This document shows positions 7,101 through 64,000 of a stretch of 64,000 nucleotides of DNA, one piece after another. Source of the stretch: Azolla caroliniana (taxonomy: Eukaryota; Plantae; Polypodiophyta); contig JBHGNT010000020.1 of NCBI GenBank assembly GCA_043228905.1, positions 14,074,001 to 14,138,000 on the forward strand, in the 5' to 3' direction. The first letter of the stretch is position 1; every line of letters begins with the position of its first letter. Under the pieces are notes generated by a model that worked only from the letters and a program-made list of their open reading frames with translations, did not search any database and was not told the origin of the DNA. A program made the translations under genes and the position numbers.

Positions 7101-7741
7101 CGCTTAGACGCATGGCGTCGACTACGAAGAGACTTTTGCCCCGGTGGCAAGGATGACAACGGTGCGGACCGTAATTGCGCTTGCCGCGGCGAAAGGGTGG
7201 CACCTCCATCAAATGGACGTCAAGAACGCCTTTCTACAAGGCGAATTAGAAGAGGAGGTGTACATGATCCAACCACCCGGCTTCAACTCGAGCACTCATC
7301 CAAAAGCCGTATGCCGACTCAAGAAGCCACTCTACGGCCTCAAGCAAGCACCGCGTGCTTGGCATTCGAAGATAACGCAATATCTTCATCAAATCGGCTT
7401 TCGTATGTCAAAATCGGACAACTCCCTCTACATACGAAGCGATTTTGTAAGTCCGATCGTCATCATCTTATATGTGGATGACCTAGTCATTGGAGGTGAG
7501 CATCTCGTCGAAATCAATAAGGTCAAATCCCTCCTTTCCGACAAGTTCGAGATGACGGACATGCGGGAGCTCCACTACTTCCTCGGCATCGAGGTAATTC
7601 GGACTCCGGCTAGAATCATGATCTCTCAACGACACTACATCCTCAACTTGTTATACAAGTTCGGGATGACTGAGTGCAAATACGTGGCAACCCCGCTCGA
7701 TCGTAATCTCAAACTAGATGCGCACTCCGGCACCAAACCGT
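4157..7741 (+). pseudogene. gag-pol: Copia B gag-pol 5' part (gag, CCHC knuckle, PR, INT, RT)
   Basis: KLDRNNFASW, CGYCGKLGHHEEEC, WFVDSGASNHMT, LWHKRIGH, CEACQFGK, LYVDDL; frameshifts ~4345 and ~5262, stops 6031, 6331, 6955. Confidence 0.92.
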
Positions 7742-8480
7742 TGTCGTGGAGAAAACCGTCCATAAGCGGAATCGGCACACCAAGGCGTGGGAACCGGTTC
7801 TTCACGCGCGCACGCTCCAAGTTGTACGTAGAAGCGAATTAGGAGGATAATCGGCAGGAACGGGCCCTAACACAAGTGGAGACAAAGACCGCGCGAACAG
7901 TCTTTTCGGTCGCGCGCGCGAGCTAAGGAACTGTACGAGTCGGCGGCGTAACTACTCGGATGCGTGAAGAGCGGAGCGGATCCCTGTCCAAAAGGGACAG
8001 GGAATAAAGCTGACAGGACGGCCCGCTCGTCGGCCTATATAAGGAGCAGGAAAGAGCTGTTGCAGGCATCTCGGGCAGAGAGGACGAAGTGCTGTCGGGC
8101 CGTTTCGGGTTCCGAGGAGGCTCGCGCTGTTTCGAGGAACGCCCAAGTGCTTCCGGCAGCACCTCCGACCTGCTCCCCCCTTTGTGCGTCGAAGCGAACA
8201 AGTATCGGCATTTGTTCGCCGGCTTGTTCGGTTGTAACCAACCTGAGCCCCATCGAGGGTTGTAGTTGTGTTAGCCATTTTTGTTAATATACATATTTAG
8301 TCGTTCGCATCTGTCTGTGTCGGTGTCTGTTCGCGTTCTCCGTGCTGAAGGGCCGTGTCCCTGTGTATCCCCGGTCCTGCGTAGCCGGTTCTCTCTCTTT
8401 CTCCTCCCTCGCTTGCTCTTTGGTTCGAGACCCCCGCGGTCCCGCCTCGTCTCCACACGCACTTGCGAAATATCTCGACA
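7742..8480 (+). repeat. 5' LTR of Gypsy C (55-bp internal deletion relative to 3' LTR)
   Basis: TGTCGTGGAG...CTCGACA; lacks the TGGACG...GTGCA segment present at 21901-21955. Confidence 0.95.
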
Positions 8481-8484
8481 TCTT

Positions 8485-8502
8485 TGGTGAACCCGACGTG
8501 AA
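8485..8502 (+). promoter_or_regulatory. Primer binding site, tRNA-Trp (also 10511-10528 + and 46801-46818 -)
   Basis: TGGTGAACCCGACGTGAA, complementary to the plant tRNA-Trp 3' end ...TTCACGTCGGGTTCACCA; 4 nt from the LTR end. Confidence 0.85.
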
Positions 8503-8524
8503 AGAGGCGGCAGAAGAGCAGAAG

Positions 8525-9706
8525 ATGAGGGGGTCGGATCTTGCAGAGGCCATGGCTTCGGCCGTGGATCGGATTGTAAACGCGCGCGAGGGCACCGGTG
8601 CCCTCGACAGAGCTATTGAGGCGGTCGTCGGCACGATCGGCCGGTTCGATGGGAAGGATGCCACGAAGTATTTGGCGTCCTACGGTGCAGAGATGCTGAT
8701 GCGGGACATTCCGGAAGAAAGGCGTCTTGCCGGATTTCCCCGAGTGGCGATGCCGAGCATCCATGCGGAGGTGCTCGAGGTGCGGGCGGAGAGCCGTACC
8801 TGGGAGGAGTTCGAAGGTCGGCTCCTAGAGAAATACGGGCTGGACGACGCGCTCCGGCTTTCGAAGCGAAGGTTCATGGAATGGGTGGAGTCCCCGGGGA
8901 AGGGAAGAAACGCGTCGGCACTCCTCCGGGAGTTCGAGGAAAACTTTGCGCGCCTTTCGGCGCTCGACCGAACCATCCTGGACACGAGCCGGGTCTTGCT
9001 GTTTGTCAAGTCGGTCGACGAGCGGGATCAGGAGCAAGTGGGCCTCTTGCTGGAAACCGAAGACGGGCTCACTACCGACTGGGCGGCTGTCAAGAAAGTC
9101 TGTGGCCGTTTCGACAAACGGCGAGAATGGGCGGATAACGGGGCAGCCGGGTCGGGCTCGGTCGCAGCAAGGAAGCTCGAACCAGCGCCACAGGTGCGAA
9201 AGGAAGAGACCCGAGAGTGGTTGGAAACCGGTTCGGCTTCGACCGGCGTAGTCAGAGGCTCAACCGGAGGAGCGGCGCTGGAGGAATTGACGAGGGCGAT
9301 AAAGGACCTCCAAATCGCGCAAGCCCGAAGGGAAGGTGGCGAACCAGCTCGTGACCGACGGCCGGCGGCAGGAAACAGGTGCATGTGGTGCGATGAAGTC
9401 GGCCACATTCGGAAGGACTGCGGCGACTTCGCGGAGGCGCTGAGGAACAGGGTGGTGTACCTGTGGGAAGGACGGGTGCATGCCAGCGACACCCGAAGGG
9501 CCCTGAGCCGAAACGACGGGCGAGGTGGTATGAAAAGGTTGATGGAAGAGGCGGCGGCCCGACACGCGGAAACCGTCCACTACTCGGCGTCGGCCGGCAT
9601 TCGAGTCGGGGGCGGCGAGGCCCGAAGGGAAAGCAAAGCCGGATTCTGGCCGACGATGCTGGAAGGCCTTGCCGGTGCAAGGCTTAAAAGGGAGGAATCG
9701 GACCGT
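8525..9706 (+). pseudogene. gag: Gypsy C gag 5' half, split by insertion of D
   Basis: Nearly identical to D gag, CMWCDEVGHIRKDC knuckle; resumes at 17041. Confidence 0.92.
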
Positions 9707-10506
9707 TGTCGTGAAGAAAACCGTCTATAGGCGGAATCAGCGCACCAAGGCGTGGGAACCGGTTCTTCACGCGCGCACGCTCCGAGTTGTACATAGAAAC
9801 GAATTGAGAGGATAATCGGCAGGAACGGGCCCTAACTCAAGTGGAGACAAAGACCGCGCGAACAGTCTTTTCGGTCGCGCGCGCGAACTGTACGAGTCGG
9901 CGGCGTAACTACGCGGATCCGTGAAAAACGGAGCGGATCCCTGTCCAAAAGGGACAGGGAATAAAGCTGACACGACGGCCTGTTCGTCGGCCTATATAAG
10001 GAGCGGGAAAGAGCTGTTGCAGGGATCGGGCGCGGAGAGGACGAAGTGCTGTCGGACCGTTTCTGGACGCTTCGCTCTCTCTGTTTCCTTCCTTCTTGAG
10101 CTCCAAAGCTTTCTGTGCAGGGTTCCGGGGAGGCTCGCGCTGTTTCGAGGAACGCCCGAGTGCTTCCGGCAGCACCTCCGACCTGCTACCCCCCCCCCAT
10201 TTCCCCGTTTGTGCGTCGAAGCGAACAGGCATCGGCATCTGTTCGCCGGCCTGTTCGGTTGCAACCAACCTGTGCCCCATCGGGGGTTGTAGTCGTGTTA
10301 GCCATTTTGTTAATACACATATTTAGTCATTCGCATCCGTCTGTGTCGGTGTCTGTTCGCGTTCTCCGTGCTGAAGGGCCGTGTCCCTGTGTATCCCCGG
10401 TCCTGCGTAGCCGGTTCTCTCTCTTTCTCCTCCCTCGCTTGCTCTTTGGTTCGAGACCCCCGCGGTCCCGCCTCTATTCCACACGCACTTGCGTAATATC
10501 TCGACA
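9707..10506 (+). repeat. 5' LTR of Gypsy D
   Basis: Direct repeat of 16237-17036, TG...CA ends, TATATAA ~9993. Confidence 0.97.
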
Positions 10507-10550
10507 TCTTTGGTGAACCCGACGTGAAAGAGGCGGCAGAAGAGCAGAAG

Positions 10551-12677
10551 ATGAGGGGGTCGGATCTCGCAGAGGCCATGGCTTCGGCCGTGGATCGGAT
10601 CGTAAACGCGCGCGAGGGTACCGGTGCCCTCGACAGAGCTATTGAGGCGGTCGTCGGCACGATCGGCCGGTTCGATGGGAGGGATGCCACGAAGTATCTG
10701 ACGTCCTACGGTGCAGAAATGTTGATGCGGGACATTCCGGAAGAAAGGCGTCTTGCCGGTTTTCCCCGAGTGGCAATGCCGAGCATCCATGCGGAGGTGC
10801 TCGAGGTGCGGGCGGAGAGCCGTACCTGGGAGGAGTTCGAAGGTCGGCTCCTAGAGAAATACGGGCTGGACGACGCGCTCCGGCTTTCGAAGCGAAGGTT
10901 CATGGAATGGGTGGAGTCCCCGGGGAAGGGAAGAAACGCGTCGGCACTCCTCCGGGAGTTCGAGGAAAACTTTGCGCGCCTTTCGGCGCTCGACCGAACC
11001 ATCCTGGACACGAGCCGGGTCTTGCTGTTTGTCAAGTCGGTCGACGAGCGGGATCGGGAGCAAGTGGGCCTCTTGCTGGAAACCGAAGACGGGCTCACTA
11101 CCGACTGGGCGGCTGTCAGGAAGGTCTGTGGCCGTTTCGACAAACGGCGAGAATGGGCGGATAACGGGGCGACTGGGTCGGGCTCGGTCGCAGCAAGGAA
11201 GCTCGAACTAGCGCCACAGGTGTGCAAGGAAGAGACCCGGGAGTGGTTGGAAACCGGTTCGGCTTCGACCGGCGTAGTCAGAGGCTCAACCGGAGGAGCG
11301 GCGCTGGAGGAATTGACGAAGGCGATAAAGGACCTCCAAATCGCGCAGGCCCGAAGGGAAGGAGGCGAACCGGCTCGTGACCGACGGCCGGCGGCAGGAA
11401 ACAGGTGCATGTGGTGCGATGAAGTCGGCCACGTTCGGAAGGACTGCGGCGACTTCGCGGAGGCGCTGAGGGACCGGGTGGTGTACCTGTTGGAAGGACG
11501 GGTGCATGCCAGCGACACCCGAAGGGCCCTGAGCCGAAACGACGGAAAGGGTGGTATGAAAAGGTTGATGGAAGAGGCGGCGGCCCGACACGCGGAAACC
11601 GTCCACTACTCGGCGTCGGCCGGCATTCGAGTCGGGGGCGGCGAGGCCCGAAAGGAAAGCAAAGCCGGATTCTGGCCGACGATGCTGGAAGGCCTTGCCG
11701 GTGCAGGGCTTGAAAGGGAGGAATCGGACCGTGCGGAGAAACGGGTACGGGAGATGACCGGGTGGAGCGACCCGGTCGAGGAAAGGACGGGCTTCGTGGA
11801 AGCCGCTTGCCGGAACTACGAGGCTCTGGTAGAAGAGAAGCGGGTGGGAAAACCCGGGACGACCGGGCCCTCACAACGATACGAGACCCGGTCCGGGCCA
11901 CGACGGGACGAAGCCGGCAGGGCCGGTACGCAAGATAAACCCCAGAAGGGCGGGTACCGTCTGGGGACGGAGATAGAAAGAACCACGGACTTACGAAAGG
12001 TCCTGGAGGAACGGATCCTCGACAGCAAGGTGGAGCTGTCGCTACGGGAGGTGCTTGGAATCGCCAAGAAGGAGTTCCACGACTCCATCGTGGACTTGGT
12101 GAAACGGAAGAGGCTGTCAACGGAGACAGAACCGGAAAGACCGGTGGAAGTGCGGACGACGCACCTAGACGACATGGCGCTGGGAGACGAGTGGGCGGAA
12201 AGCCACTATTCGAGACCGCACTGGGCCCGAGCGACCACGGAAACCCCGGTGAAGATCGGCGATGTCCAGGAACCGGTGATAGCTTTGGTGGACCACGGAT
12301 CGGAGATCAATTTGATGTCCATGGACTTCTATAAGAAGGGCAAATGGCCGATCAACACCAAGCACGGGTGGAAAATAAGGGCAGCAACGCGCGCCACCGA
12401 GGAACTGCACGGGGCCTGTCCGAATGTGCGAGTCAAGATCGGCGACGTCGAGATTGACCAGCACTTCTTCGTGCAGGAGACGTCTTCGCATCCGGTCATA
12501 CTGGGAGAGCCGTACATCACGGCGGCGCGAATGGAGACCAAGGTGCTGGACAATGGTTCGGCCTATGCGCGGGTCAAGAGCCAGGACGGCCGCCATTCGG
12601 TCCAGTTTTTGACGGTTAGGCCGAACCACGAGCGTAACCGCGACTCCCTCGGTTCCGATAACCGAGAGGATTTTTAG
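10551..12677 (+). CDS. gag: Gag-protease polyprotein of D
   Basis: CX2CX4HX4C knuckle; aspartic protease ALVDHGSEINLM...VILGEPY; first ATG after the PBS (frame also open from GTG 10524). Confidence 0.9.
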   Translation: MRGSDLAEAMASAVDRIVNAREGTGALDRAIEAVVGTIGRFDGRDATKYLTSYGAEMLMRDIPEERRLAGFPRVAMPSIHAEVLEVRAESRTWEEFEGRLLEKYGLDDALRLSKRRFMEWVESPGKGRNASALLREFEENFARLSALDRTILDTSRVLLFVKSVDERDREQVGLLLETEDGLTTDWAAVRKVCGRFDKRREWADNGATGSGSVAARKLELAPQVCKEETREWLETGSASTGVVRGSTGGAALEELTKAIKDLQIAQARREGGEPARDRRPAAGNRCMWCDEVGHVRKDCGDFAEALRDRVVYLLEGRVHASDTRRALSRNDGKGGMKRLMEEAAARHAETVHYSASAGIRVGGGEARKESKAGFWPTMLEGLAGAGLEREESDRAEKRVREMTGWSDPVEERTGFVEAACRNYEALVEEKRVGKPGTTGPSQRYETRSGPRRDEAGRAGTQDKPQKGGYRLGTEIERTTDLRKVLEERILDSKVELSLREVLGIAKKEFHDSIVDLVKRKRLSTETEPERPVEVRTTHLDDMALGDEWAESHYSRPHWARATTETPVKIGDVQEPVIALVDHGSEINLMSMDFYKKGKWPINTKHGWKIRAATRATEELHGACPNVRVKIGDVEIDQHFFVQETSSHPVILGEPYITAARMETKVLDNGSAYARVKSQDGRHSVQFLTVRPNHERNRDSLGSDNREDF

Positions 12678-15600
12678 AGAGGGCTGCCAAGGCGTGGGGC
12701 CGCGACAGTCCGGACACCCCGGGAAAACCCCACACCTGTACGATAAAACCGAAGAAACCTTGTACCATAGGTAGGGAATTTTTGTTCTCCGACAGCGGAG
12801 CGTGTGCGATGGTCGGCATCGCCGGCCGAGAGAAAACAAAGACGGAGGCGAGACTTCGAGCGTGCGGAGTTCTCGGCCCGGACGAGGAAATCAACGGAGC
12901 CGTGGAGGCGGTCTCATTCGACGACACCTTGGGAATGCTGGGAAAGGTAGTCGAAGAAGGCCTTAACGACAACCGGACGATACCGGTGTGTTCCGAGGAG
13001 ATGTACGAAGTCATCACGGACTTCGGTCGAGGGCTCGAGTCAGTTCGGACGGCCCACGTAAACACCAAGTACAAGACTGTGGACCATAAGGTAAGGCCAG
13101 TAGCGGCACCCTTACCGGAGGACAGCGCGTCGAGAATCAAAGGGGTTGCATCAGACCCTAGTCTACGAGATCCGGCCTGCATAGGGCACACCTTCACTAA
13201 CGAGACGCTCCGAGAGCTCAAAATCGGTGGGGGCGGGTTCCTACTGCCGGCGGAGGAAGACCGGTTTCGGAGAATGCTCGGAAGGCACGGGAAAGCCTTC
13301 GCATTCTCGCCGGAGGAAATCGGGTGCGTTGACCCGACGATCGTGGAGCCGATGGTGATATTCACGGTACCGCATGTACCATGGAATCTCAAGCCAATCC
13401 CGGTTCCGAGAGCTCACATCCCGAAGTTGATGGAGCTGCTGAGGCAGAAAGTTGATATGGGAATTCTCGAGCCGTCGAGCGCCCCATATTCGAATCGATG
13501 GTTTACCGTACCGAAGAAAAACGGTTCGCTGCGCTTCATCCAGGACCTGCAGCCGGTCAATCGAGTGACCATTCGGAACGCAGGAATCGGACCGACCATA
13601 GACGAGTTCGCGGAGGCCTTCGCCGGAAGGTCAATTTACTCGGTCGGGGATCTATACTCAGGGTACGACCAGTTCCAGCTGGCCGTGGAGAGCAGAGACC
13701 TTACGACGATGCGAACTCCCCTCGGCCTAGTTCGGATGTGTACACTGCCGCAAGGAGGGACCAACTCGGTGGCCCACATGGTGAATGCGATGAACAAGGT
13801 TCTGAGGGACTGTGTCCCGGACATTACCATGCCGTTTCTGGACGACATCCCGATCAAGGGATGCCCGGTGGAAGAAAAGGACGAGACGATCGGGCCGGAC
13901 GGATGCCGGCGATTCGTGGCGACGCACGTCGACGACTGCGAGAAGGTGCTGCAAAGGCTAGAGGATGCGAGACTCACCTTCTCCGGGGAGAAGTCGGCCT
14001 TCGGGCAGTCAGAAATCATGGTGGTCGGACACCTGTGCGGACCATATGGCCGGAAACCGTCTCCGGCGAAGGTAGAAGCCATCTCCGCGATGAAGCCCGA
14101 CTGCAGCTCGGTCACGGAAGTACGGAGATTCCTGGGGGCATGCGCGTTCTACCACATATGGATCCCGCATTACGCACACGTCGCGGAGCCACTGTACGGG
14201 TTGCTGAAAAAGGGGCGAAGGTTCGAATGGCTAGACAAGCACGCGGAATCGGTCCGGAAGCTGAAAGAGGCCCTTGCAGCGGCACCGGCACTCCGGAAGG
14301 CGGTTTACGGGAAGGGTACCCCGGTATTCATAACGGTGGATACCAGTCCGACCGGGATCGGATGGGTCGTGAACCAGGAAGACGAGGACGGCAATCGGTT
14401 TCCGATCCGATTCGGCGCGAAAGTCCTCAGTGAACGGCAGCGAGGGTACGCCCAGGTTAAACGCGAACTCTGGGGTATTGTTTCGGCGGTTAAGGCCGAC
14501 AAAGACTACCTGATAGGGACGGAAGTGATCATCGAGACGGATTGCCTGCCGATTCTCGGTATGGTTTCCGGATGCGCGACTCCGGACCTGGCGATGCTCA
14601 GGTGGATAGCGTACATCAAGTCCCTGGACCCGGAAATACGACACATTTCCGGGAAAGACAACGCCATGGCCGACATGCTTTCGAGGGCGAGGTACGACGA
14701 CGAGGGCGGCATGGTTTCGGAAGACGAAGAAGTCGGCGTGGATTTCTTCGAGGCGGCATACATAACGACCGACGGGATGAGCACTCCGGCGCTTAACGAG
14801 TTCGACGCGAGCAAGTACGACGGGGAATGGCTGCAGATCGGCGGGTTTTTGAAGACGATGACGCCCGATGCGTCATGGACGAAGGACGAGGCCAACCGGA
14901 TCCGGAAGAAAGCATATCGATTCTTTCTCCGAGATGGGCATCTATGGAAGCACCCGAAGAAGAGGGACGGCGTCCCGCTCCGAGTGGTGGCGATGAAGGA
15001 AGAGCAGGAGGAGCTACTGGCGGCCTACCACGACAGCCCTTGGGCTGGACACCGTGGAACGTGGGCGACGTTTGAGAAGCTGAAGGGAAAGTACTGGTGG
15101 CCGGGATTGTACCGGGACGTGCATCGGTTCGTGTCAACTTGCGAGAGTTGTCAGATGCACTCGATAGTCCGACACCGGGACGGGCTTCACCCTACGTACC
15201 CTCCGACTATCCACTTCAAATGGATGGTAGATCTGGTGACGATGCCGATGGGGGTAGGACAGATGCGGTATCTGGTCCTAGCGCGGGAAGACCTGACGAA
15301 CCAGGTGGAAGGCCGAGCCCTTCAGAACAAGACGACCGCGGCCGTGTGTCGGTTCCTAGTCGAGGACGTGATATGCCGGTACGGGTGCGTCGGGAAGATC
15401 GTGGCTGACCGAGGGGAGTTGGACGCCGAAGAGGCCGCGGAGCTGTTCGACCGGCTTGGAGTCAAGCTCTCGCTCACCACTGCGTACAATCCGGAGGCGA
15501 ATGGAAAGGTGGAGCGCGGACACGGACCGATCATCAAGGCGTTGATTCGGGCATGCGGAGGCCAAGTCGGTAACTGGCCGCGGCTGCTACCTTATGCTTT

Positions 15601-16165
15601 GTGGGCAGACCGGACCACGCACAGTTCGGTAACCGGGTACATGCCGACGGAGCTCATGTTCGGCCAGAAGCCGATCATGCCGGTTGAACGGACGATCTCC
15701 TCGTGGGCAGCGGTCGACTGGAGGGACGAGATGAGCCGGGAGGAGTTGTTGGTCGCACGTATACAACAGCTCGAGCGGAGGCCGGAGGACGTGGCACTGG
15801 CTACGGAGAAGCTCCGGGTGGCGAGGACAAAGAACAAAGCCCGGTTCGACCGAACGCACCGGCTACGACCGAAGAAAATCGAAGAAGGTGACTGGGTGCT
15901 CGTCTACGACAGCAGCCTCGACAACCAGCACCGAGCCACACGGAAGTTCGCACGAAGGTGGTTCGGGCCTTACGTGGTACGGAGTGCCAATGACAACGGG
16001 ACATATCACCTGGCGGAACTTGACGGCACGAGAATGGCGATACCGGTTGCAGGGAAGCGGATCAAAGCGTTCAAGAAGCGACACGACGACGAGCCAGACC
16101 CGGCTCTCCTGGTCGGCAATGACGAACGATCCGAAAATGAAGAAGAACCGACGGGCGAGGAATGA
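12668..16165 (+). CDS. pol: Pol (RT-RNase H-integrase) of D, probably expressed by -1 frameshift
   Basis: DLYSGYDQ, LPQGGTNS, FLDD, VDTS, HHCC zinc finger, DDE core, GPY/F motif, no chromodomain; frame open from GGATTTT at 12668. Confidence 0.92.
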   Translation, partial: GFLERAAKAWGRDSPDTPGKPHTCTIKPKKPCTIGREFLFSDSGACAMVGIAGREKTKTEARLRACGVLGPDEEINGAVEAVSFDDTLGMLGKVVEEGLNDNRTIPVCSEEMYEVITDFGRGLESVRTAHVNTKYKTVDHKVRPVAAPLPEDSASRIKGVASDPSLRDPACIGHTFTNETLRELKIGGGGFLLPAEEDRFRRMLGRHGKAFAFSPEEIGCVDPTIVEPMVIFTVPHVPWNLKPIPVPRAHIPKLMELLRQKVDMGILEPSSAPYSNRWFTVPKKNGSLRFIQDLQPVNRVTIRNAGIGPTIDEFAEAFAGRSIYSVGDLYSGYDQFQLAVESRDLTTMRTPLGLVRMCTLPQGGTNSVAHMVNAMNKVLRDCVPDITMPFLDDIPIKGCPVEEKDETIGPDGCRRFVATHVDDCEKVLQRLEDARLTFSGEKSAFGQSEIMVVGHLCGPYGRKPSPAKVEAISAMKPDCSSVTEVRRFLGACAFYHIWIPHYAHVAEPLYGLLKKGRRFEWLDKHAESVRKLKEALAAAPALRKAVYGKGTPVFITVDTSPTGIGWVVNQEDEDGNRFPIRFGAKVLSERQRGYAQVKRELWGIVSAVKADKDYLIGTEVIIETDCLPILGMVSGCATPDLAMLRWIAYIKSLDPEIRHISGKDNAMADMLSRARYDDEGGMVSEDEEVGVDFFEAAYITTDGMSTPALNEFDASKYDGEWLQIGGFLKTMTPDASWTKDEANRIRKKAYRFFLRDGHLWKHPKKRDGVPLRVVAMKEEQEELLAAYHDSPWAGHRGTWATFEKLKGKYWWPGLYRDVHRFVSTCESCQMHSIVRHRDGLHPTYPPTIHFKWMVDLVTMPMGVGQMRYLVLAREDLTNQVEGRALQNKTTAAVCRFLVEDVICRYGCVGKIVADRGELDAEEAAELFDRLGVKLSLTTAYNPEANGKVERGHGPIIKALIRACGGQVGNWPRLLPYALWADRTTHSSVTGYMPTELMFGQKPIMPVERTISSWAAVDWRDEMSREELLVARIQQLERRPEDVALATEKLRVARTKNKARFDRTHRLRPKKIEEGDWVLVYDSSLDNQHRATRKFARRWFGPYVVRSANDNGTYHLAELDGTRMAIPVAGKRIKAFKKRHDDEPDPALLVGNDERSENEEEPTGEE

Positions 16166-16236
16166 AGACGGGCCGGTTTTCTCCGTCCCAACTCTCTTGG
16201 CGCATACCGGAGGATGCGCGGTTAGGTGGGGGCGGA

Positions 16237-17036
16237 TGTCGTGAAGAAAACCGTCTATAGGCGGAATCGGCGCACCAAGGCGTGGGAACCGGTTCTTCAC
16301 GCGCGCACGCTCCGAGTTGTACATAGAAACGAATTGAGAGGATAATCGGCAGGAACGGGCCCTAACTCAAGTGGAGACAAAGACCGCGCGAACAGTCTTT
16401 TCGGTCGCGCGCGCGAACTGTACGAGTCGGCGGCGTAACTACGCGGATCCGTGAAAAACGGAGCGGATCCCTGTCCAAAAGGGACAGGGAATAAAGCTGA
16501 CACGACGGCCTGTTCGTCGGCCTATATAAGGAGCGGGAAAGAGCTGTTGCAGGGATCGGGCGCGGAGAGGACGAAGTGCTGTCGGACCGTTTCTGGACGC
16601 TTCGCTCTCTCTGTTTCCTTCCTTCTTGAGCTCCAAAGCTTTCTGTGCAGGGTTCCGGGGAGGCTCGCGCTGTTTCGAGGAACGCCCGAGTGCTTCCGGC
16701 AGCACCTCCGACCTGCTACCCCCCCCCCATTTCCCCGTTTGTGCGTCGAAGCGAACAGGCATCGGCATCTGTTCGCCGGCCTGTTCGGTTGCAACCAACC
16801 TGTGCCCCATCGGGGGTTGTAGTCGTGTTAGCCATTTTGTTAATACACATATTTAGTCATTCGCATCCGTCTGTGTCGGTGTCTGTTCGCGTTCTCCGTG
16901 CTGAAGGGCCGTGTCCCTGTGTATCCCCGGTCCTGCGTAGCCGGTTCTCTCTCTTTCTCCTCCCTCGCTTGCTCTTTGGTTCGAGACCCCCGCGGTCCCG
17001 CCTCTATTCCACACGCACTTGCGTAATATCTCGACA
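16237..17036 (+). repeat. 3' LTR of Gypsy D
   Basis: Preceded by PPT, followed by TSD CCGT. Confidence 0.97.
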
Positions 17037-17040
17037 CCGT

Positions 17041-21464: not shown

Positions 21465-21535
21465 AGACGGGCCGGTTTTCTCCGTCCCAACTCTCTTGGC
21501 GCATACCGGAGGATGCGCGGTTAGGTGGGGGCGGA

Positions 21536-25973: not shown

Positions 25974-26067
25974 TGATATTAGAGCACGACGGTTGAGAAC
26001 CTCTGCTGCAAACATTTACTCTTGAGAAGAAAACCCTAACAGGTCGAAAACAAACACAGTAGAAGAC

Positions 26068-30646: not shown

Positions 30647-30677
<31 letters not shown>

Positions 30678-40218: not shown

Positions 40219-40312
40219 GTGTTCGGTCGCTTCAGGGACGCGTCCGGAATCGCCCTCTTGACATCCCTTCCTCTCTCGTCCAAGACCCTCGTGGTCCCAC
40301 CCTTCTACACGC

Positions 40313-46778: not shown

Positions 46779-46822
46779 CTTCTGCTCTTCTGCCGCCTCT
46801 TTCACGTCGGGTTCACCAATGA

Positions 46823-47610: not shown

Positions 47611-47634
47611 ACGCACGCACGTAACAACACGACA

Positions 47635-53451: not shown

Positions 53452-54593
53452 ACTCAGGTCGACAGCCGGATCGGTGTGAGAATCTTCGTGGGACCTCGGT
53501 TTGCCCGCCTTGCCGCCGCCACCGCCCGTCGATCTAGGTCTCACGCTGGCACTCGGGCCGACCACCGGAGCCTCTAGGGCCGGTGTGTGTAAGGTCGTCG
53601 CACCACCGCTTGTCTCCTCCGTCCTCCGCATCAGCCTCTTCGGCTGGTCGCGTTCACCTGTTGCCATCGTTCTCTCCTACAGGACTCACACCGGCACTCG
53701 TTGCCGATTGCCGGATCGGTGTGAGGATCTTCGCAAACCGCCCATCCGCAGTCCTTTGTCTTCGTCCCCTTGCCGCCACCGATCGCCACTCTAGGTCTCA
53801 TGCCGGCTCTCGGGCCGACCGCCGGAGTCTCTGGAACCGGTGTGAAGGATCCTCCTTGGGCTCATCGTATCCTTGACCCTTATCCCGAGTCTTCCTTCTT
53901 CAGCAAGCCGAGAGGGTGGCTCGCTCCACACCCTCTCCCGTGGTACCAACGTACCGTGTTCTCGGCCTCTCGTAGGCCTGCTCTCTTCCTCCCTCCCGGA
54001 ATGGTTATCCGGGAGTCCGCTCCGCCCGGTTCTCATCTGGGTTCGTTCGTCATTCTCTGGATTGCCGGGTCCCGTTCTCCTGTTGCCACCGACCTCTCCT
54101 ATAGGACTCATGCCAGCACTCGGGCCGACAGCCGGCTCGGTGTGAAGATCTCCGTAGGACTGGTCTTCGCTCTCCTCTTCATCCCCTGTACTTCTCCCGA
54201 ACTCGTCGTCGCTCTCCTTGTTGTGTTCCCGCCTCCATCTTCCATCTCTCCAGGTCTCACGCCGGCGCTCGTTGCCGGCTACCTGAGTCTCCGGATAAGA
54301 CGTGGTGTTTCCGTCCCGTAATGATTTGCGGACGCTCGTTCAGGGTACCGCTCCCCAAGCACGTTTGGTGAGAAGCATCTGGACTTCGATCGATCAAATG
54401 CCGCCTGCACTTGATTCTCCAATGTCCAGAGTTTCGGGCAGCGGTGTTCGAAACCTACCGGTCTCTCTCTGCAACCTCGATCGCTAGCTTCCCGATTTGC
54501 GGCCTTCGCCTAGCCGGCTTGTGTCCTCATGTAAAAGAGGGAGATTTGTTGCGCACCCTCTTCCGCACGGGCATTATTGTACCGAACCGAGCC

Positions 54594-55390
54594 CTACCGA
54601 TCGGGCTTTATAGCCCATCCCCGGTCTTTCGCGCCTTGGGCCGGTTTCGTTCGAGTCATCCACATCCAGATCACGCTCCATCCGAATCGGAATGCCGATC
54701 TTTCCGTGCCACCTCCGTCCTTGGCCTCCTCGCAGGCCGTTTCCCATCCCTCTTCGCTGGCATCGTGCCAGGACTCCTCGTCGGCGCCTTCCTTCTCTCC
54801 GGTCTCATGTCGGCACACGGGCTCGACCACCGGAGTCTCCGGAATCCGCATGGAGGGCTCTTCTCCACTCCCGAGCTTGTCCTCGGTCAGAATTTCTCCG
54901 CAAGTCGAGAGGGCGTTTTGTTCCGGACCCTCTCCCGTCGTACCGTCATACCAATCTCCTGCCATCGCGTGGGGCAAGTCCGTCTCCTCGGTCTCGGCTT
55001 GTGGCCTCGATCTTTCCTCTTCCTCGAGCATCGCCTCGAGAGCTGCATACGCCTCCACAATCTTGGCCCCAACGCCAACCCTTTCCGATTCTCTTTGTCG
55101 TTCGGCCTCTTCCCGTTGTGATGGTACGCCGTCGTGTGCCTTCCTCTTAGCCTTCTCGGCTCGCTCATTGTCTAGCCGTTGGCAAACCCTTCCGACCTTC
55201 GACCAGTCCTTCGTAAGCCCATTCGCTCCGTCATCGTCTTCGAGCTCAATCCCGATGGCCTCCCGTTCCACTCGGTCGATCGACCTGACGAATAATAGGA
55301 CTTTGTCCGCCCCCACCAAACCTTGTTCCCGCTCCGGGACCCAAGCAAGTCGTCGCTCGAACTCTCAGAACGCCTTTGTTGCACCCCGAT
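54594..55390 (-). pseudogene. Gag-derived ORF remnant of E2
   Basis: KVLLFVRSIDRVEREAIG...GLTKDWSKVGRVC aligns with C/D RVLLFVKSVDERDREQVG...GLTTDWAAVKKVC. Confidence 0.78.
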
Positions 55391-55927
55391 GGGTCTTTGC
55401 TCGAACTCTCAGGGCGGGACCACGGGGGTCTCAGACGAGGGAAGAAGGGAAGCCGAGAAGACGATTCCGGATGCGTTCCGGAAGCAACCGAACAAGAGAG
55501 AGAAAGAGAGAGAGAGAGCGCTTGACACCGACTCACACCCACACACACACACCACGCCGACCCAACTCACGCCCTTATGTACAGAAACGGAGGTAAGAGA
55601 ACACCAAAACACCCACACAAACGTCGATATGCAGAACCCTCCATGCATATATTACAAGACTAAGATACAATATTGGTATCAAGCCTGACCTAAGTAGCTC
55701 AAGTTACAACAGTCGTCTACTGCCAAGCCGCCGGTCGGGGAGCTCTCGGGCTTGTCGTGCCGAGCGGGGTCTTGTATAGAGAACGGGTAGAAAACAAGAA
55801 CACGAGATGCCAAGGCTCGACACTCAGAATGAAGAAGAGGAAGAAGCAGAGGCAAGAAGAAGAAAAATGAAACCCTAAACAAGAGGAAGGGAAAGAGAAA
55901 GAGAGGACATCTCTTAATCTAACGGTA

Positions 55928-56530
55928 TGTAGAGTAATCGACGCTCCGATTAACCTTCACTACTCGGCCACAACCGAGTAAGCACGAATCAATGCAGCAA
56001 AAAATAGGAACCACAGAGAAAGAACACGAATACTCAGGGATTAACGTGGAAAACCCTAGACGGGAAAAACCACGGGAGTACAAGACTCCAAACCAAACAC
56101 TATGCACAGAGAAATATACAATGGCGAGCTGCAAGGCGACGACCTTGAGCTCGTTGTCCTTGCCACAGGCGGCGGAAATACACAGAGGCGTCGACCTCCT
56201 CCTCTCTCACGCTCTATCTCTCTCACGGCTGCTCTCTCTTCACTCCTCTTGAGTGGAAAAACAGAAAAATGAGAAGCAACATTAAAACTGTTTGCCCTAA
56301 GTCATATTTATACACATATGACTTTGGGGCTATTTACAACTATAGCCTCAAGGGCCCTTGGCAAACATATTCACAGATATGTCCCCGCATCCGGATCTCG
56401 CTCCGGGTACATTCGTCATCCAGCTCCGAAGCCGGGGTCTTCATCATCCGGTTCCGAAACCGAAACCGGGCTTGTCGGCATTCATCTCCGACATCCGACC
56501 ATCCCATCCGAAGGGACCGTAATCCCAACA
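55928..56530 (-). repeat. 3' LTR of Copia J
   Basis: Repeat of 60644-61246. Confidence 0.96.
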
Positions 56531-56540
56531 AACTCCCCCT

Positions 56541-59500
56541 TCACTTCGGCATGGGATGTCTTTCCAATCCGATCCTCTTCCGGCATGCTTCCAGCTTGTC
56601 GGGTGTGAGCACCTTGGTCAGCATATCCGACCCGTTCTCGTCCGTGTGGACCTTCGTCAGCACGAACTCCTTGTCTTCTATCCTTTCCCGGATCCAGTGG
56701 TATCTACGCTGGATGTGTTTCGTCCGGGAATAGTAGGCCGCGTTCTTCGCAAGGTGGATGGCACTCTGACTATCGCAGTAGAGTCGGTACTCCTCCTGTC
56801 GGATACCGAGCTCTCTAATGAAGTCCTTCATTCATATTATTTCCTTGTCGGCTTCAACAGCCGCCATGTACTCCGCCTCCGTGGTTGACAACGCAACCGT
56901 CTTCTGCAGCCTCGACTGCCATGAAACCGCTCCCCCTGCATACGTCATCACATACCCTGATGTGGACCGGCTGGTATCTGCATCAGCCGACATATCCGAA
57001 TCGGTAAAGCCGTCGAGTTCGGGCTTACCGGAGCCGAATCGGAGGCACACGTTTGCCGTGCCCTTCAGGTATCGGAGTATCCACTTGGCCGCGTTCCAAT
57101 GCTCTTTGCCGGGATTGCTCATGTACCGACTCACCACTCCGACTGCATATCTGATGTCCGGTCGGGTACACACCATTGCGTACATCAAGCTCCCGACGGC
57201 AGAGGCATATGGTACTTTCATCATGTCCTCCTTCTCAGCCTTTGTCTTGGGGCTTTGCTTGCTGGACAACTTGCAGTTTGCCGGGAGGGTCGATCCGACC
57301 GGTCTTGCTTCCGACATGTTGAACCGGTGAAGCACCTTTGTCACGTACTTCTCCTGTGACAGCCACAACTGCTTCTTGCTCCGGTCCCGGATGATGTGCA
57401 TCCCTAGTATTTGTCTCGCCGGACCCAAGTCCTTCATTGAGAAGGTTCGGTGAAGAGCCTTCTTCAGCATCCGTATCTTGACCTGGTCTCGTCCGACGAT
57501 CAACATGTCGTCCACGTACAGGAGGAGTATTAGAAAGTCTCCTCCTTCGAACTTCTTCACAAACACGCAGTGGTCGGACTGCGTTTTGAGGTACCCTTCG
57601 TCGGTCATGAAGGAGTCGAACTTCCGGTACCATTGCCGGGGAGCCTGTTTCAGTCTGTAAAGGCTCTTCTTTAACCGGCATACCAGGTGCTCCTTCCCTT
57701 TCTTCTCGAATCCTTCCGGTTGCTGCATGTAGATCTCTTCTTCGAGGTCACCGTGAAGGAATGCCGTCTTCACGTCCATCTGTTCTACCTCGAGGTCCAT
57801 GCTTGCCGCTATGCTCAGCACCGTTCGGATGGAGGTCATCTTCACTACCGGGGCAAATATCTCGTCGAAGTCGACGCCCTTCTTCTGCTGAAACCCCTTC
57901 ACCACGATCCTAGCTTTGTATCTCGGGGGGTTTCCGGCATCTCCCGGTTTCAGCTTGAACACCCACTTGTTTCGAAGTGCCCGCTTTCCTTTCGGCAACT
58001 CCACAAGTTCATATGTGTGGTTCTCATGCAGGGAATCCATCTCGTCCTGCATGGCACTCAACCACCTGCGGCTCTGGGTGTCATGCTTTGCTTCTTCAAA
58101 GCTCTCCGGCTCCCCCTCGTCGGTTAGCAACAGGTGCTCTGGTTCCGGAAATCTCCGGGGGGCCCTTCTCTCTCTTAGAGGATATCTCCGTTCCGGAGCT
58201 TCGGTGACCGGTTCTTCCGATTCTTCTTCATCCGAATCCATTTCGGGATCGGGGCCGGTTCCGGTATCATTTTCATCTTCTTCGGCCGGTTCTGTTTCTT
58301 CACCGTCTTCGGCCGGATCCTCGAGTGCTAACCGGTCCCTTGCCGGTCGGGACTGCTCCTCGTAGAGTTGATCCTCACCGGTCGACTTGGAGCTCTTCAT
58401 CTTCTTCTCCGACTCCCAGTCGGCGAGTGTCTTGTTCTCCATGAAGATGATATCACGACTCCGGAATATCTTCTTGTCGACCGGGTCCCATACTCGGTAG
58501 CCGAACTCGTCATCGCCGTAACCGAGGAATATGCATGGCCGGGTCTTTGGATCTAGCTTTCCTCTCCGGTCCTTTGCCACATGCACGTATGCGAGACACC
58601 CGAACACCTTCAGATGCCGGTAGGACACTTCCTTACCGGTCCACACTTTCTGCGGCGTGTCTCCGTCCAAAGGTACTGAGGGTGATCTATTTATCACATA
58701 TGTCGCCGTCGACATTGCCTCAGCCCAAAACCCCTTGGGTAATTTCGCATGCGCCAGCATACTCCGGACCCTCTCCATTATGGTCTGGTTCATCCTCTTG
58801 GCCAGCCCGTTCAGTTCCGGCGTCTTCGGCACAGTAAACTCGAGCCGGATTCCTTTCGAGCGACAGTACTCCGCGAACTGCCCCCGGTATTCCCCTCCGT
58901 TGTCCGCTCGTATCGCTTTCAGCTTCTTGCCGGATTCTCTTTCCACTCTCGCGTGGAGTTCTTTGAAGACGGACAACACTTGGTCCTTTGTCTTCATCGG
59001 TGCCGTCCACAGTCTTCGGCTATGATCATCTATGAATGTTACGAAGTACTGGGCTCCGCCATGTGACTTCGTTTCTACCTGACACACATCGGTGTGCACC
59101 AACTCCAATGGTGCGCTACGTCTCGTCGGTGGCCTTGAGTGGAAGGAGGTTCGGTTCTGCTTACCGGCCAGGCAATCGGTGCACTTCTCCAGGTGCACAT
59201 GCTTCACTGGAATAAGGTTGTCTTCTGCAAGCCTCTTCATCCCCTTCTCACTCATGTGGCACAGTCTTTTGTGCCACAGCTCACCGGCAGTGTCGGCTGC
59301 CACATTCAGCTCTTCCGGACATAACCGGGCATTCATCAGGTACAGTGTGTTGACTTTCCGGGCCCGAGCCACTATCAGGCTCCCCTTGCTGAACTTCATT
59401 ACGCCGTTCCGGATGCTACCTGTGTAGCCTTCGTCATCTAGCCTTCCGGCCGAAATCAGGTTCAATCGAACCTCCGGAACGTGTCGGACATCCTTCAACA

Positions 59501-60614
59501 GCATTTTGCATCCGGTCGGGGTTGTCAACCACACGTCTCCTATGCCGGCAATCCGGCACGTACCTTCATTTCCCATCCGAACACAGCCATGCTCACCGGC
59601 TGTGTAGGATGAGAAGTATCTTCTTTCCGGGGTCAGGTGGAACGACGCTCCGAAATCGACCACCCAGGTCGTCTCATCGCCGGCAATGTTTAGCTCACCT
59701 TCTTCGGTGATGAGCATGATTTCTTCCTCACTTGCCGCGAGTGCCGTCGTTCCTTTCCTGTCCTGCCCTCGCCGATCCGAACCATTCCGGTCCGTGGCTC
59801 CCCGGTAAGCCCCGTTTCGTTCCGAAGACTTCTTCGAATCGGTGTCGTCGGCTCTGTTGTCTTTTCGGTAATGCCGACAATTCTTTCGGAAGTGCCCCGG
59901 CTTCCCACAGTGGAAGCATGTGGGCCTTCCTCTTGACTACGACCGGGTCCCCGACTTCTCCCGTCTTTGCGGACTCCGGTTCCGTTGTCTTCCCCGATCC
60001 GATTCGGTAAACAACATCTTCGGATCGGAGGCCGGTTCTTTATCTCTCCGACGCGCTTCTTCGTTCAAAATACTTGTCTTTACCATTTGTAGGGACAAGT
60101 TATCTTCCGTGCAGGAGGTGCTGAGAGTCACCACCAAGTTCTCCCAGCTTTCCGGCAATGTACACATCAGGATGATGGCTTGCATTGCATCCTCCAACGG
60201 GAACTTGATCGCCGCAAGCTGGTTCACGAATCCCATGAACGTGCTTACGTGTTCCACCATACTCTCGCCGTCCCGGTACTTGAGGTTCACTATCTTCCTC
60301 ATCAGGGAGGTCCGGTTCAACGCATTCTTCCTCTCGTAGAGGCCCGACAGCTTCCGCCACATCTCATATGCGTTGGTGTCGTTCGCCACATGTTGTAGAA
60401 CGCTCACGTCTACGTATTGCCGAATGGTTGCTACGGCTTTCCGGTTCAGAAGCCTCCATTCCGACTCAAGTACCCCCTTCGGTATTTCCGACCTGTCGAT
60501 CGGTTCGTACAGGTCCCGAACAATCAGAAGATCCTCCATCTTGATCTTCCAGTCGGCGTAATTCTGCGCATTCAGCACCATCATCCCCGGCTGCCCGCTG
60601 CCGCCGCCTTCCAT
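56541..60614 (-). pseudogene. gag-pol: Copia J gag-pol with two in-frame stops
   Basis: Collinear with the G ORF; CAG>TAG at 59937-59939 and TGG>TGA at 56832-56834. Confidence 0.93.
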
Positions 60615-60643
60615 TTTCTGCAGCAGTCGCTCTGATACCAGTT

Positions 60644-61246
60644 TGTAGAGTAATCGACGCTCCGATTAACCTTCACCACTCGGCCACAACCGAGTAAGCA
60701 CGAATCAATGCAGCAGAAAATAGGAACCACAGAGAAAGAACACGAATACTCAGGGATTAACGTGGAAAACCCTAGACGGGAAAAACCACGGGAGTACAAG
60801 ACTCCAAACCAAACACTATGCACAGAGAAATATACAATGGCGAGCTGCAAGGCGACGACCTTGAGCTCGATGTCCTCGCCACAGGCGGCGGAAATACACA
60901 GAGGCGTCGAACTCCTCCTCTCTCACGCTCTATCTCTCTCACGGCTGCTCTCTCTTCACTCCTCTTGAGTGGAAAAACAGAAAAATGAGAAGCAACATTA
61001 AAACTGTTTGCCCTAAGTCATATTTATACACATATGACTTTGGGGCTATTTACAACTATAGCCTCAAGGGCCCTTGGCAAACATATTCACAGATATGTCC
61101 CCGCATCCGGATCTCGCTCCGGGTACATTCGTCATCCGGCTCCGAAGCCGGGGTCTTCATCATCCGGTTCCGAAACCGAAACCGGGCTTGTCGGCATTCA
61201 TCTCCGACATCCGACCATCCCATCCGAAGGGACCGTAATCCCAACA
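60644..61246 (-). repeat. 5' LTR of Copia J
   Basis: Adjacent to PBS. Confidence 0.96.
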
Positions 61247-61451
61247 CGGTATACCCTACTAATACAAAATGGGCAACCTCTTCACCAAGGGCACTCCCTT
61301 CTTTTTATAGAACAAGGAGAGGGACCCGTAACATCGTGGGATAAATCCCTTATTACATGGGATTCTTGTCCCGACTTGATTACTCTTCGGCGCCATAAAG
61401 GCGCCCTCGTTATTTCCCGGTTTCCGCCTCTACCCGAAATTCTTCACGATA

Positions 61452-64000
61452 GCGGAATGCTTGAGAGACATGGGAAAGCCTTTGCCTTCTCTCCACAAGA
61501 GATCGGATGTGCTGACCCGAAGATGATAGAGCCGATGGGATGTTTACGGTGCCGCATGTACCTTGGAACCTCAAGCCAATACCGGTTCCAAGAGCTCACA
61601 TTCCAAAGTTGATTGAGCTTCTAAAGGAGAAGGTTAGGATGGGAATTCTTGAGCCATCCAATGCTCCCTACTCTAATAGATGGTTTAAGGTGCCGAAGAA
61701 GAACGGGTCCTTACGCTTTATACAAGATCTCCAACCCGTCAACAAGGTGACGATCTGAAATGCCGGAATTGGTCCAAGCATGGATGAATTTGCCGAAGCC
61801 TTCGCGGGAAGATCGATCTATTCCATTGGTGATCTCTACTCAAGTTATGATCAATTTCAATTGGCCGTCGATAGTAGAGATATAACGACAATGAGGACGC
61901 CGATTGGGTTGGTAAGGATGTGCACCTTACCCCAAAGTGCGACAAATTTTGTAGCCCACATGGTGAATGCCATGAACAAAGTGTTGAGGGATTGTATCCC
62001 TGATATCACAATGCCCTTCTTAGACGACATTCCAATCAAAGGATGCTTGGTGGAAGAAAAAGATGAATCAAAAGATGACGATGGTCGCCGAAGATTCGTC
62101 ATCAATCATATAAAGGATAGCGAGAAGGTGTTGCAAAAGCTTGAGGATGCAAATCTCACGTTTTCGGGAGAGAAGTCTGCATTCGGTCAACCAGAAATAT
62201 TGGTAGTAGGACACTTATGTGGGTCTTATGGCCGGAAGCCATCTCCATCCAAGGTGAACGCTATTCAAGAGATGAAAGAAGAATGTGTGTCTCAAATGGA
62301 GGTGTGAAGATTCTTGGGAGCATGTGCATTCTATCACATATGGATTCCACATTATGCCCATGTCGTTGAACCATTGTATGGACTATTAAAGAAAAGGAAG
62401 AATTTTGAATGGGAAGATGAGCATACCTACGCGATTCAAAAGCTAAAGAAACTATTATTGGAAGCTCCAGCACTGCGCAAAGCCGACTACACCGATGGTA
62501 CCCCGATATATGTGATGGTGGATACAAGCCCAACCGGAATTGGATGAGTGATAAACCAAGAAGACAAAGAAAAGAATCGGTATGCAATCCGATTCGGTGC
62601 GAAGGTGTTAACCGAAAGACAAAGGAAGTATGCCCAAGTAAAGAGAGAGCTATGGGGAATAGTACCCGCGGTTAGAACCGACCGTGACTACCTTATAGGA
62701 ACAGAGGTCATAATCGAAACCGATTGTCTACCTATTCTCGGAATGATATCCGGTTGTGCTACACCGGATATTGCTATGCTGCGATGGATTGCCTATATCA
62801 AGTCCCTCAACCCCGAGATTCGGCATATAAATGGGAAGCATAATGTGGTGGCCGATATGTTGTCAAGGGTGAGGTATCAGGGTGATGAAGATTGGCACTC
62901 CGAAGAAGAGGATGTTGGCCTAAAGTTCTTTACGGTTTCTTGTGCTCGGGTGCTAGCAGTGTTCAAAGTAGAATATTATGAGGGTGAATTCATCGAAATT
63001 GGCAAATACTTAAGCTCTCTTACAAAAGATGAATCATGGTCAAAGGAAGACTTCTACCAAATTAGGAAGAAGGCCTACAAGTTCTTCCTCAAAGAAGGAC
63101 ATCTTTGGAAGTTTCCAAAGAAGAAGAATGGAACTCCACTTCGGGTGGTGTGCAAGAAACAGGATCAACAAACACTAATTGTTGAATTTCATGATAGCGT
63201 GTGGGTAGGTCATCGTGGCATATGGGCAACATTTGCAAAGCTCAAGGAGAAGTATTGGTGGTCGGGTGTTTACAAAGATGTTGCAAGCTATGTTGAAACA
63301 TGTGAGCAATGCCAATTATACTCGAAAATTCAACATAGGGATGAACTTCATCCGACATATCCATTATCGATGCACTATAAGTGGTTGGTAGACATAGTGG
63401 TTATGCCAATGGGATTGGGGCAAATGAAATATCTTGTGCTATCAAGAGAGGATCTCACCAACCAAGTAGAAGGATGGGCGCTAAGGAATAAAACAACTTC
63501 GGCGGTTTGTAGGTTTCTCCTTGAAGATGTTATTTGTCGATACGGATGTGTCGGCAAAATAGTGACCGATAAAGGAGAATTAGATGCGAATGAAGCTAAA
63601 GAGTTCTTTTCAAGAATAGGCATCAAATTATCGCTCACCATGGCATACAACCCGGACGCAAATGGGAAGGTGGAACGAGGACATAGTCCAATTGTAAAAG
63701 CTCTAGCAAAGGCTTGCGACGGCAAGATGGGAAATTGGCCACGATTACTACCTTATGCATTGTGGGCAGATAGAACTACACATAGCACGATTATGGGATA
63801 TATGCCCGCCGAACTCATATTAGGACAAAAACCAATAATGCCTATTGAGCAAAGTGTTGCTTCGTGGACATCTTTCCCATGGCAAGAGGAAATGAGTCAG
63901 GAAGACTTGCTAGCCACGAGGATTCAACAATTAGAACGAAGGCCCGAAGATGTCGAGTTGGCAATAGAACGGTTGCGCCAAGCTCAATTGAAGAACAAGG
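61452..64000 (+). pseudogene. pol: Degenerate AT-rich pol (K) related to C/D/H, runs off window
   Basis: HGKAFAFSP, PWNLKPIPVPRAH, MPFLDDIPIKG, VDTSPTG, DKGELDANE...NGKVER; several stops. Confidence 0.9.

What the first reader, a model, noticed from the sequence alone, without database searches (positions are those of the whole stretch)
7738..61455. Gypsy family and its non-autonomous partners insert at CpG-centred 4-bp targets
Seen: every readable junction of C/D/H and the E-type elements has CG in the middle of the 4-bp target. Full TSDs are C CCGT (7738/22330), D CCGT (9703/17037) and H ACGC (40309/47611). Single flanks are E CCGG (23838-23841), E' CCGT (47635-47638) and E2 GCGG (61452-61455). 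In element orientation the next 3' base is G in all five sites where it is readable. Two of the hosts (Tcn1-like, K) are AT-rich, so local composition does not explain it. Known: most plant LTR elements make 5-bp TSDs with weak sequence bias. Inference: a sequence-selective integrase, possibly sensing (methyl-)CpG, steers a chromodomain-less Gypsy into other TEs.
Basis: partly seen in the sequence, partly recalled or inferred. Interest (0 to 1): 0.85.

Follow-up and report, generated by a model that had tools for sequence, protein, structure and literature searches.

The report
Known CpG-targeting Phygy retrotransposon family
These plant jumping genes really do land on CG pairs and duplicate four bases there, but this is the published hallmark of the Phygy retrotransposon lineage, to which they likely belong; whether the enzyme senses methylated CG is untested.

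Summary
All six junctions carry the stated CG-centred 4-mers, and the D and H duplications are confirmed against uninterrupted copies. Outside the window, 27 of 32 distinct LTR flanks in metagenome contigs are NCGN against a background of 0.037 per position; 4 of the other 5 are TG/CA decay products. Majority letters of 1,106 clipped reads from a related organism end in ACGT. It is not new: Neumann et al. 2019 (PMC6317226) list Phygy as '4 bp (100%) (NCGN)', tRNA-Trp primed, without chromodomain, and these elements match on every feature I could test; the RT/RH/INT tree against REXdb could not be run. Corrections: the 3' G is not invariant (9 of 24 outside) and shows no asymmetry; E and E2 are gag-only, but E' is the end of a pol-bearing sibling; methyl sensing and steering into TEs are unsupported. 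Small additions: the motif is V-CG-B, and two LTR-ACGT-LTR junctions suggest re-insertion into an earlier duplication. The scan noted NCGN targets before in a fungal genome (unchecked AI note).

The parts
7742..22329 (+). Element C: Phygy-type Ty3/Gypsy, 7254 bp without the nested D; LTRs 7742-8480 and 21536-22329; pol broken by stops; host is a Copia RT
   Evidence: LTRs 733 matches, 6 mismatches
7738..7741 (+). C left TSD CCGT (right copy 22330-22333, followed by G)
9707..17036 (+). Element D: intact 7330-bp copy nested in the gag of C; LTRs 9707-10506 and 16237-17036 (799/800 identical); gag-protease frame 10497-12677 (DUF4100), pol frame 12662-16165 (RT, RNase H, integrase; no chromodomain)
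9703..9706 (+). D left TSD CCGT (right copy 17037-17040, followed by G); single copy in uninterrupted D and H gag
10507..10527 (+). 4-nt spacer then primer-binding site, 16 of 17 bases identical to the complement of a tRNA-Trp 3' end printed in bioRxiv 10.1101/400127
14816..16162 (+). Integrase of D: HHCC, D139-D198-E233, GPY motif, SH3-like C-terminal domain with a conserved loop (L368, Q371, H372, K377, F378; numbering from 14816), short acidic tail, no chromodomain
40313..47610 (-). Element H: intact 7298-bp copy (LTRs 787/788 identical), inserted 20 bp from the 3' end of the E' LTR; TSD ACGC 40309-40312 and 47611-47614
23842..39309 (-). Element E: gag-only (no pol) partner, 5' part missing; 3' LTR 23842-24616, PPT, about 3.3 kb internal DNA split by Copia F (25579-36994, TSD GTCCC); flank CCGG 23838-23841 in a Tcn1-like integrase
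39310..47634 (+). E': 3' end of a pol-bearing sibling family (integrase tail, PPT, 3' LTR 39518-47634 split by H); flank CCGT 47635-47638 in the chromodomain of chromovirus K
53452..61451 (-). E2: gag-only partner, 3' part missing; 5' LTR about 55411-61451 split by Copia J (55928-61246); gag remnant 55161-55388; flank GCGG 61452-61455 in an older Phygy-type pol (72% aa to D)

Best explanation
C, D and H are young Ty3/Gypsy copies, likely of the Phygy lineage, that sit in 4-bp duplications centred on CpG, and their integrase likely picks V-CG-B targets by itself and likely also moves the gag-only E and E2 elements in trans. Shown: the 4-bp CG-centred sites in the window and in 27 of 32 outside flanks; near-absence of T at the first and A at the last base; shared LTR ends, primer site and polypurine tract between autonomous and gag-only elements. 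Inferred by analogy with foamy-virus intasomes: the 4-bp stagger kinks the target at its central pyrimidine-purine step and excludes T at the joined base; because CpG is chosen over the commoner TpA, CpA and TpG steps, a base-specific contact must be added, most likely from the conserved C-terminal-domain loop (Q371/H372/K377). The TG/CA flanks are likely CpG targets deaminated after insertion. Nesting in other TEs likely follows from CpG-rich TE sequence and tolerance by selection, without a methyl reader.
For: Window junctions and empty-site checks. 18 of 22 unique 3' flanks NCGN against 0.81 expected, p=1e-22; pooled 27 of 32. T first 0 of 27 against 36% background, A last 1 of 27 against 32%, the same exclusion that Serrao et al. 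report for 4-bp-TSD retroviruses (PMC4422553, section 6). 1,106 clipped raw reads of organism C and 12 contigs of organism A both give majority letters ending ACGT before the LTR start. Phygy row in PMC6317226 supplement: 186 elements, 4 bp (100%) (NCGN), tRNA-Trp 81%, no extra domain. P. patens proteins match D gag-protease at 48-58% identity. No chromodomain. Closest solved structures are PFV and Ty3 integrases. E, E2 and L028 internal regions hit gag but not pol.
Against: Phygy membership rests on features and on similarity to unclassified P. patens proteins, not on a tree with REXdb references. The elements (7.25-7.33 kb) are slightly shorter than the published Phygy range (7656-9968 bp). 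One 5' flank is CTAT (L001) and one solo-LTR contig (L030) has unlike flanks (CCGG/CCAT), so some metagenome contigs are probably chimeric or the sites decayed. The outside flanks come mostly from E-type LTRs in one series of assemblies and need not be the window's species. The monomer model is weak in domain packing (pTM 0.45, TM-score about 0.33 to PFV), so no residue could be placed on target DNA; the loop assignment is only conservation plus analogy.
Confidence: 0.8

Rival explanations
1. The integrase (or a host partner) prefers methylated CpG and so steers the elements into silenced TE DNA, doing the job of a chromodomain.
For: All six window insertions are inside other TEs; 4 of 5 non-CG outside flanks are TG/CA, p=0.002 against dinucleotide background, so target CpGs were likely methylated at some time; Jedlicka et al. 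found Phygy often nested in Tcn1 (PMC6911290).
Against: The window is wholly TE, so nesting there carries no information. Only 8 of 22 outside 3' flanks are recognisable TE (one by eye) with no background to compare. Deamination can follow insertion, since new TE edges become methylated (general knowledge). No methyl-binding or chromo domain in pol. Flank CpG o/e ranges from 0.11 to 1.38 with no pattern.
Confidence: 0.14
2. Only DNA bendability is read: any flexible pyrimidine-purine step would do, as for foamy virus.
For: 4-bp-TSD retroviruses select central YR steps (PMC4422553); all 32 outside flanks have a central YR step.
Against: In the flank background TA (0.071), CA (0.065) and TG (0.071) are each nearly twice as common as CG (0.037), yet CG takes 27 of 32 sites; retroviral YR enrichment is only about 63% above random.
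Confidence: 0.04
3. An orientation-specific motif NCGN-G: the two element ends read the target differently.
For: G follows the 3' TSD in 5 of 5 window sites while C precedes the 5' TSD in 0 of 4; window versus outside p=0.017, so a family-specific bias of C/D/H is not excluded.
Against: Outside: G in 9 of 24, C in 3 of 8 (p=1.0); pooled with the window p=0.30. The majority letter before the 5' TSD in 1,106 reads is C, the palindromic partner of G (agreement 0.36, and G in the 12 contigs of X2).
Confidence: 0.08
4. Chance or local composition.
For: The window is 53% GC with CpG o/e near 1.
Against: Joint probability 2e-8 in the window and 4e-34 outside; Copia elements of the same window make 5-bp duplications.
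Confidence: 0.005

Closest known systems
Phygy lineage (non-chromovirus Ty3/Gypsy; Neumann et al. 2019, PMC6317226; passages and supplement file 5 read)
   Same: 4-bp NCGN TSD, tRNA-Trp primer site, no chromodomain or extra ORF, short element filled by gag-pol; P. patens homologs at 48-58% in gag-protease. Jedlicka et al. 2019 (PMC6911290; passages and section 8 read) add 4-bp TSDs with GC-rich centre and nesting into Tcn1, as for E and E' here.
   Different: Defined there from P. patens only; here a different non-seed plant (host not determined), elements 300-400 bp below the published size range, gag-only partners using the same target, and a V-CG-B refinement that I did not see stated in the parts read.
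Ginger1 DNA transposons (Bao et al. 2010, PMC2836005; passages read)
   Same: Gypsy-like integrase with GPY/F motif; 4-bp TSD CCGG (75%) or CCGT/ACGG (24%).
   Different: Cut-and-paste DNA transposons with terminal inverted repeats in animals; narrower motif; no RT or LTRs.
ZAM of Drosophila (Faye et al. 2008, PMC2527525; abstract read)
   Same: LTR element whose integrase itself binds and nicks a CpG-rich target in vitro.
   Different: Target CGCGCg, three-ORF insect element, second binding site.
Prototype foamy virus intasome (Serrao et al. 2015, PMC4422553; passages and section 6 read)
   Same: 4-bp TSD, central YR step, T disfavoured at position 0 and A at +3; best structural match of the model.
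   Different: Weak YR bias rather than near-strict CpG.
TR-GAG non-autonomous LTR retrotransposons (name recalled; seen only in a search listing)
   Same: E, E2 and L028 have LTRs, PBS, PPT and a gag-derived frame, no pol.
   Different: Tied here to a Phygy-type partner; gag similarity covers only the first 200-250 residues at about 35%.

Membership tests
Phygy | Clade in RT/RH/INT trees with REXdb Phygy references | not testable with these tools
   REXdb sequences not available (supplement files 1 and 3 of PMC6317226 too large). Indirect only: P. patens proteins 48-58% to D gag-protease; Riccia sorocarpa pol proteins mostly 52-67%.
Phygy | 4-bp TSD with NCGN sequence | tested here: met
   3 of 3 full TSDs and 3 of 3 single flanks in the window; 27 of 32 outside; definition.
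Phygy | tRNA-Trp primer-binding site (81% of members) | tested here: met
   C, D, H and 7 metagenome LTRs carry the same site, 16 of 17 bases matching a human tRNA-Trp complement; the plant tRNA itself was not fetched.
Phygy | No chromodomain, no extra ORF or archaeal RNase H; coding region fills the interior | tested here: met
   Pfam on D and H pol: RT, RNase H, integrase only; Chromo found in host K as positive control; gag and pol frames span D's interior.
Phygy | Length 7656-9968 bp | tested here: inconclusive
   7254-7330 bp: just under a range taken from one species; the paper calls size of little weight for classification.
Selgy | 4-bp TSD without stated motif, tRNA-Ala PBS, 4.4-6.7 kb | tested here: not met
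   PBS is Trp-type and elements are 7.3 kb.
TatI | 4-bp TSD, tRNA-Trp PBS, extra archaeal RNase H, about 9 kb | tested here: not met
   One RNase H only in Pfam scan, 7.3 kb.
Chromoviruses (Tcn1, Galadriel) | Chromodomain at the integrase C terminus | tested here: not met
   No Chromo hit in D or H pol.
Ginger1 | Terminal inverted repeats, no reverse transcriptase | tested here: not met
   Direct LTRs and RT/RNase H present.
Gag-only non-autonomous partner (E, E2) | LTR, PBS, PPT kept; no pol | tested here: met
   tblastn of D and 10 homologs finds gag but no pol in E, E2 and L028 interiors. Not met for E' (integrase tail).

The most novel reading that the evidence does not exclude
Phygy-type integrases read methylated CpG directly through their conserved C-terminal loop, giving a chromodomain-free route into silenced DNA, and because every insertion recreates two targets they re-insert into earlier duplications and build LTR-NCGN-LTR arrays (2 of 32 outside junctions look so).
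Probability: 0.12. Interest if true: 0.7.

Novelty: new member of a known kind. Interest (0 to 1): 0.22.

Why it matters
The CpG target itself is in print for Phygy, so the finding is mainly a confirmation in another non-seed plant, with gag-only partners and a sharper motif. It still marks a usable system: D and H are intact, young copies (LTRs 99.9% identical) of one of very few plant LTR lineages with near-strict target sequence, so the basis of CpG choice and any methyl dependence can be tested in vitro. I found no such test in the papers read (searches).

Tried and rejected
No whole genome is held, so the genome-wide TSD count could not be run. Scans of viral and prokaryote collections with an LTR-start pattern gave 1 and 3 hits, taken as chance and not examined. 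First read-laying run on a whole LTR showed only internal variants. Cluster look-up of 10 homologs gave no organism names. The AlphaFold monomer (pLDDT 76.5, pTM 0.45) matched PFV and Ty3 integrases but with rmsd near 20 A, too loose to place residues on DNA. In the sequence alignment the invariant E201 falls on PFV Ala188 next to a one-residue gap; rejected as CpG reader because Ala188 contacts bases three positions outside the joining point. Rows dropped before counting: of 32 loci, 7 were followed by the PBS, L016 had no LTR upstream, L024 and L025 duplicated L007 and L002; 5 LTR starts preceded by the PPT and one further PBS end were internal. For the TE-host check 80 of 98 flank frames were scanned against Pfam; those left out belong to five loci already assigned by blastn. 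The idea that E and E2 are two ends of one element was rejected: their hosts differ and E's interior ends at 39309. An invariant or one-sided 3' G was not supported. No binding prediction was run.
Full report
Observation. C, D and H have the same 4-mer on both sides. For D the site occurs once in the uninterrupted gag of D and H, and for H once in the homologous end of the E LTR, so these are true target duplications. CpG frequency in host DNA at the six sites is 0.02-0.12 per position, and the product is 2e-8. Copia elements F, G and J in the same window make 5-bp duplications.

Anatomy. D (7330 bp) and H (7298 bp) are intact with LTRs differing at one base each; C is 7254 bp without D and slightly older. 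D carries a gag-protease frame with DUF4100 and a pol frame with RT, RNase H and integrase, and no chromodomain, whereas host K has one. After a 4-nt spacer each 5' LTR is followed by a primer site 16 of 17 identical to the complement of a tRNA-Trp 3' end. E runs on the minus strand from 23842 to about 39309, split by Copia F; E2 runs from 61451 to about 53452, split by Copia J. Their interiors, and that of metagenome contig L028, hit gag (about 35% over the first 200-250 residues) and not pol, so they are gag-only partners; L028 is a high-depth collapsed contig and is read with caution. E' differs: it keeps the integrase tail, and L011 has the same LTR type directly behind integrase, so it derives from a pol-bearing sibling.

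Test outside the window. No genome is held. A scan of metagenome contigs for the LTR 3' end gave 32 loci. Seven were followed by the PBS, one had no LTR upstream, and two were duplicates, leaving 22 flanks: 18 NCGN against 0.81 expected (p=1e-22), the other four ATGT, ATGT, CCAG, CCAT. A relaxed search of the same loci added two 3' and eight 5' flanks. Pooled: 27 of 32 NCGN; 4 of the 5 others have central TG or CA (p=0.002), one is CTAT. Among the 27, T is first in 0 (background 36%) and A last in 1 (background 32%), so the motif is V-CG-B; ACGT is commonest (10 of 32). These are mostly E-type LTRs from one series of assemblies, and contigs can be chimeric across repeats (L001 and L030 have unlike flanks). 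Independently, laying runs on the PPT and LTR start gave 1,106 raw reads of organism C clipped exactly at the LTR start; their majority letters end in ACGT at overall agreement 0.36, and 12 contigs of organism A end likewise. That is a majority line, not a count.

The 3' G. It is present in 5 of 5 window sites but 9 of 24 outside (p=0.06 against 22% background); its palindromic partner, C before the 5' copy, is in 3 of 8 outside, 0 of 4 in the window, and is the majority letter in the raw reads. A weak symmetric bias fits; a one-sided rule does not, though a bias special to C/D/H is not excluded (window versus outside p=0.017).

What is known. Neumann et al. 2019 (PMC6317226; passages and supplement file 5 seen, files 1 and 3 too large to read) state that Phygy elements are the exception among plant LTR elements in preferring NCGN, and tabulate 186 elements with 4 bp (100%) (NCGN), tRNA-Trp 81%, no extra domain, 7656-9968 bp. 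Jedlicka et al. 2019 (PMC6911290; passages and section 8) report mostly 4-bp TSDs for Phygy, GC-rich centres in 4-bp TSDs, and Phygy nested in Tcn1 in P. patens. Named homologs of D come from Riccia sorocarpa (pol), P. patens (48-58%) and Adiantum nelumboides (47-50%) (gag-protease), so the host is likely a moss, liverwort or fern; I did not determine it. TSD, primer, domain content and layout all fit Phygy and exclude Selgy, TatI and chromoviruses; size is slightly under the published range; the defining tree was not possible. The unread supplement 1 lists individual TSDs and may already show V-CG-B. Outside plants, Ginger1 transposons with Gypsy-like integrases use CCGG or CCGT/ACGG (PMC2836005, passages; lead from AI note e1-10582392), and ZAM integrase nicks CGCGCg in vitro (PMC2527525, abstract).

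Mechanism. Shown: the target motif and its sharing by autonomous and gag-only elements. From established work (PMC4422553, passages and section 6): 4-bp-stagger intasomes unstack the central step, favour YR there, and disfavour T at position 0 and A at +3, which accounts for V..B. Inferred: bendability alone cannot explain CpG, because TA, CA and TG are each nearly twice as common in the flanks, so a base-specific contact is needed. PFV and Ty3 integrases are the closest structures. In 66 aligned relatives the loop between the first strands of the C-terminal domain has Q371 (60), H372 (59), K377 (65), F378 (65); PFV contacts target bases with C-terminal Arg329, so this loop is my candidate, on analogy only. 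Trans-mobilisation of E and E2 is inferred from shared termini, primer site and polypurine tract.

Methyl sensing and steering. All six window insertions are in TEs, but the window holds nothing else. Of 22 outside 3' flanks, 7 are TE by blastn or Pfam and one by eye (80 of 98 frames scanned), with no background. TG/CA flanks show that target CpGs were likely methylated at some time, which can follow insertion. No reader domain was found. The idea is open, not supported (about 0.14). Searches that did not turn up a test of it: (listings only unless stated); subscription papers are not covered.

Side leads. L010 (head to tail) and L018 (head to head) have two LTR ends separated by exactly ACGT, as expected if an element lands on an earlier duplication; 2 of 32, assembly error not excluded. 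Copia G and J, one family, both have the TSD CGGTA; n=2.

Verdict. Real, strong, and already described for this lineage: a new member of a known kind, interest 0.22.

Noticed in passing
window 30379-30383/35876-35880 and 55923-55927/61247-61251: Copia elements G and J, same family (92% identical), inserted in unrelated hosts, both have the 5-bp TSD CGGTA; this 5-mer makes up about 0.24% of window positions in either orientation. Possible sequence-selective Copia family; only two copies.
   Followed up: partly
L010 (minus strand 1109-1112) and L018:2711-2714: Two LTR termini separated by exactly ACGT, head to tail and head to head: possible insertion into the duplication left by an earlier element.
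   Followed up: partly
window 10507-10510, 8481-8484; L006, L011, L015, L018, L023, L028: Four bases (five in L026) lie between the 5' LTR end and the primer-binding site, which would mean a longer 3'-processing step than the usual two bases (usual value recalled).
   Followed up: no
L028:12-2747: A 912-codon open frame between PBS and PPT, gag-like at the start and low-complexity after, with no Pfam hit: a gag-only partner element with a long tail of unknown role.
   Followed up: partly
window 39309/39310: E (minus strand) is fused head to head with the 3' end of E' (plus strand); both 5' parts are lost, so a deletion joined two nests.
   Followed up: partly
window 3610-23639: Copia A has unlike flanks (GAAGC/CGCAC) and its Tcn1-like host jumps from RNase H to mid-integrase, pointing to recombination or deletion.
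   Followed up: no
window 52766-53258: A 243-bp tandem duplication at 99.6% identity in an otherwise decayed element; recent duplication or assembly artefact.
   Followed up: no
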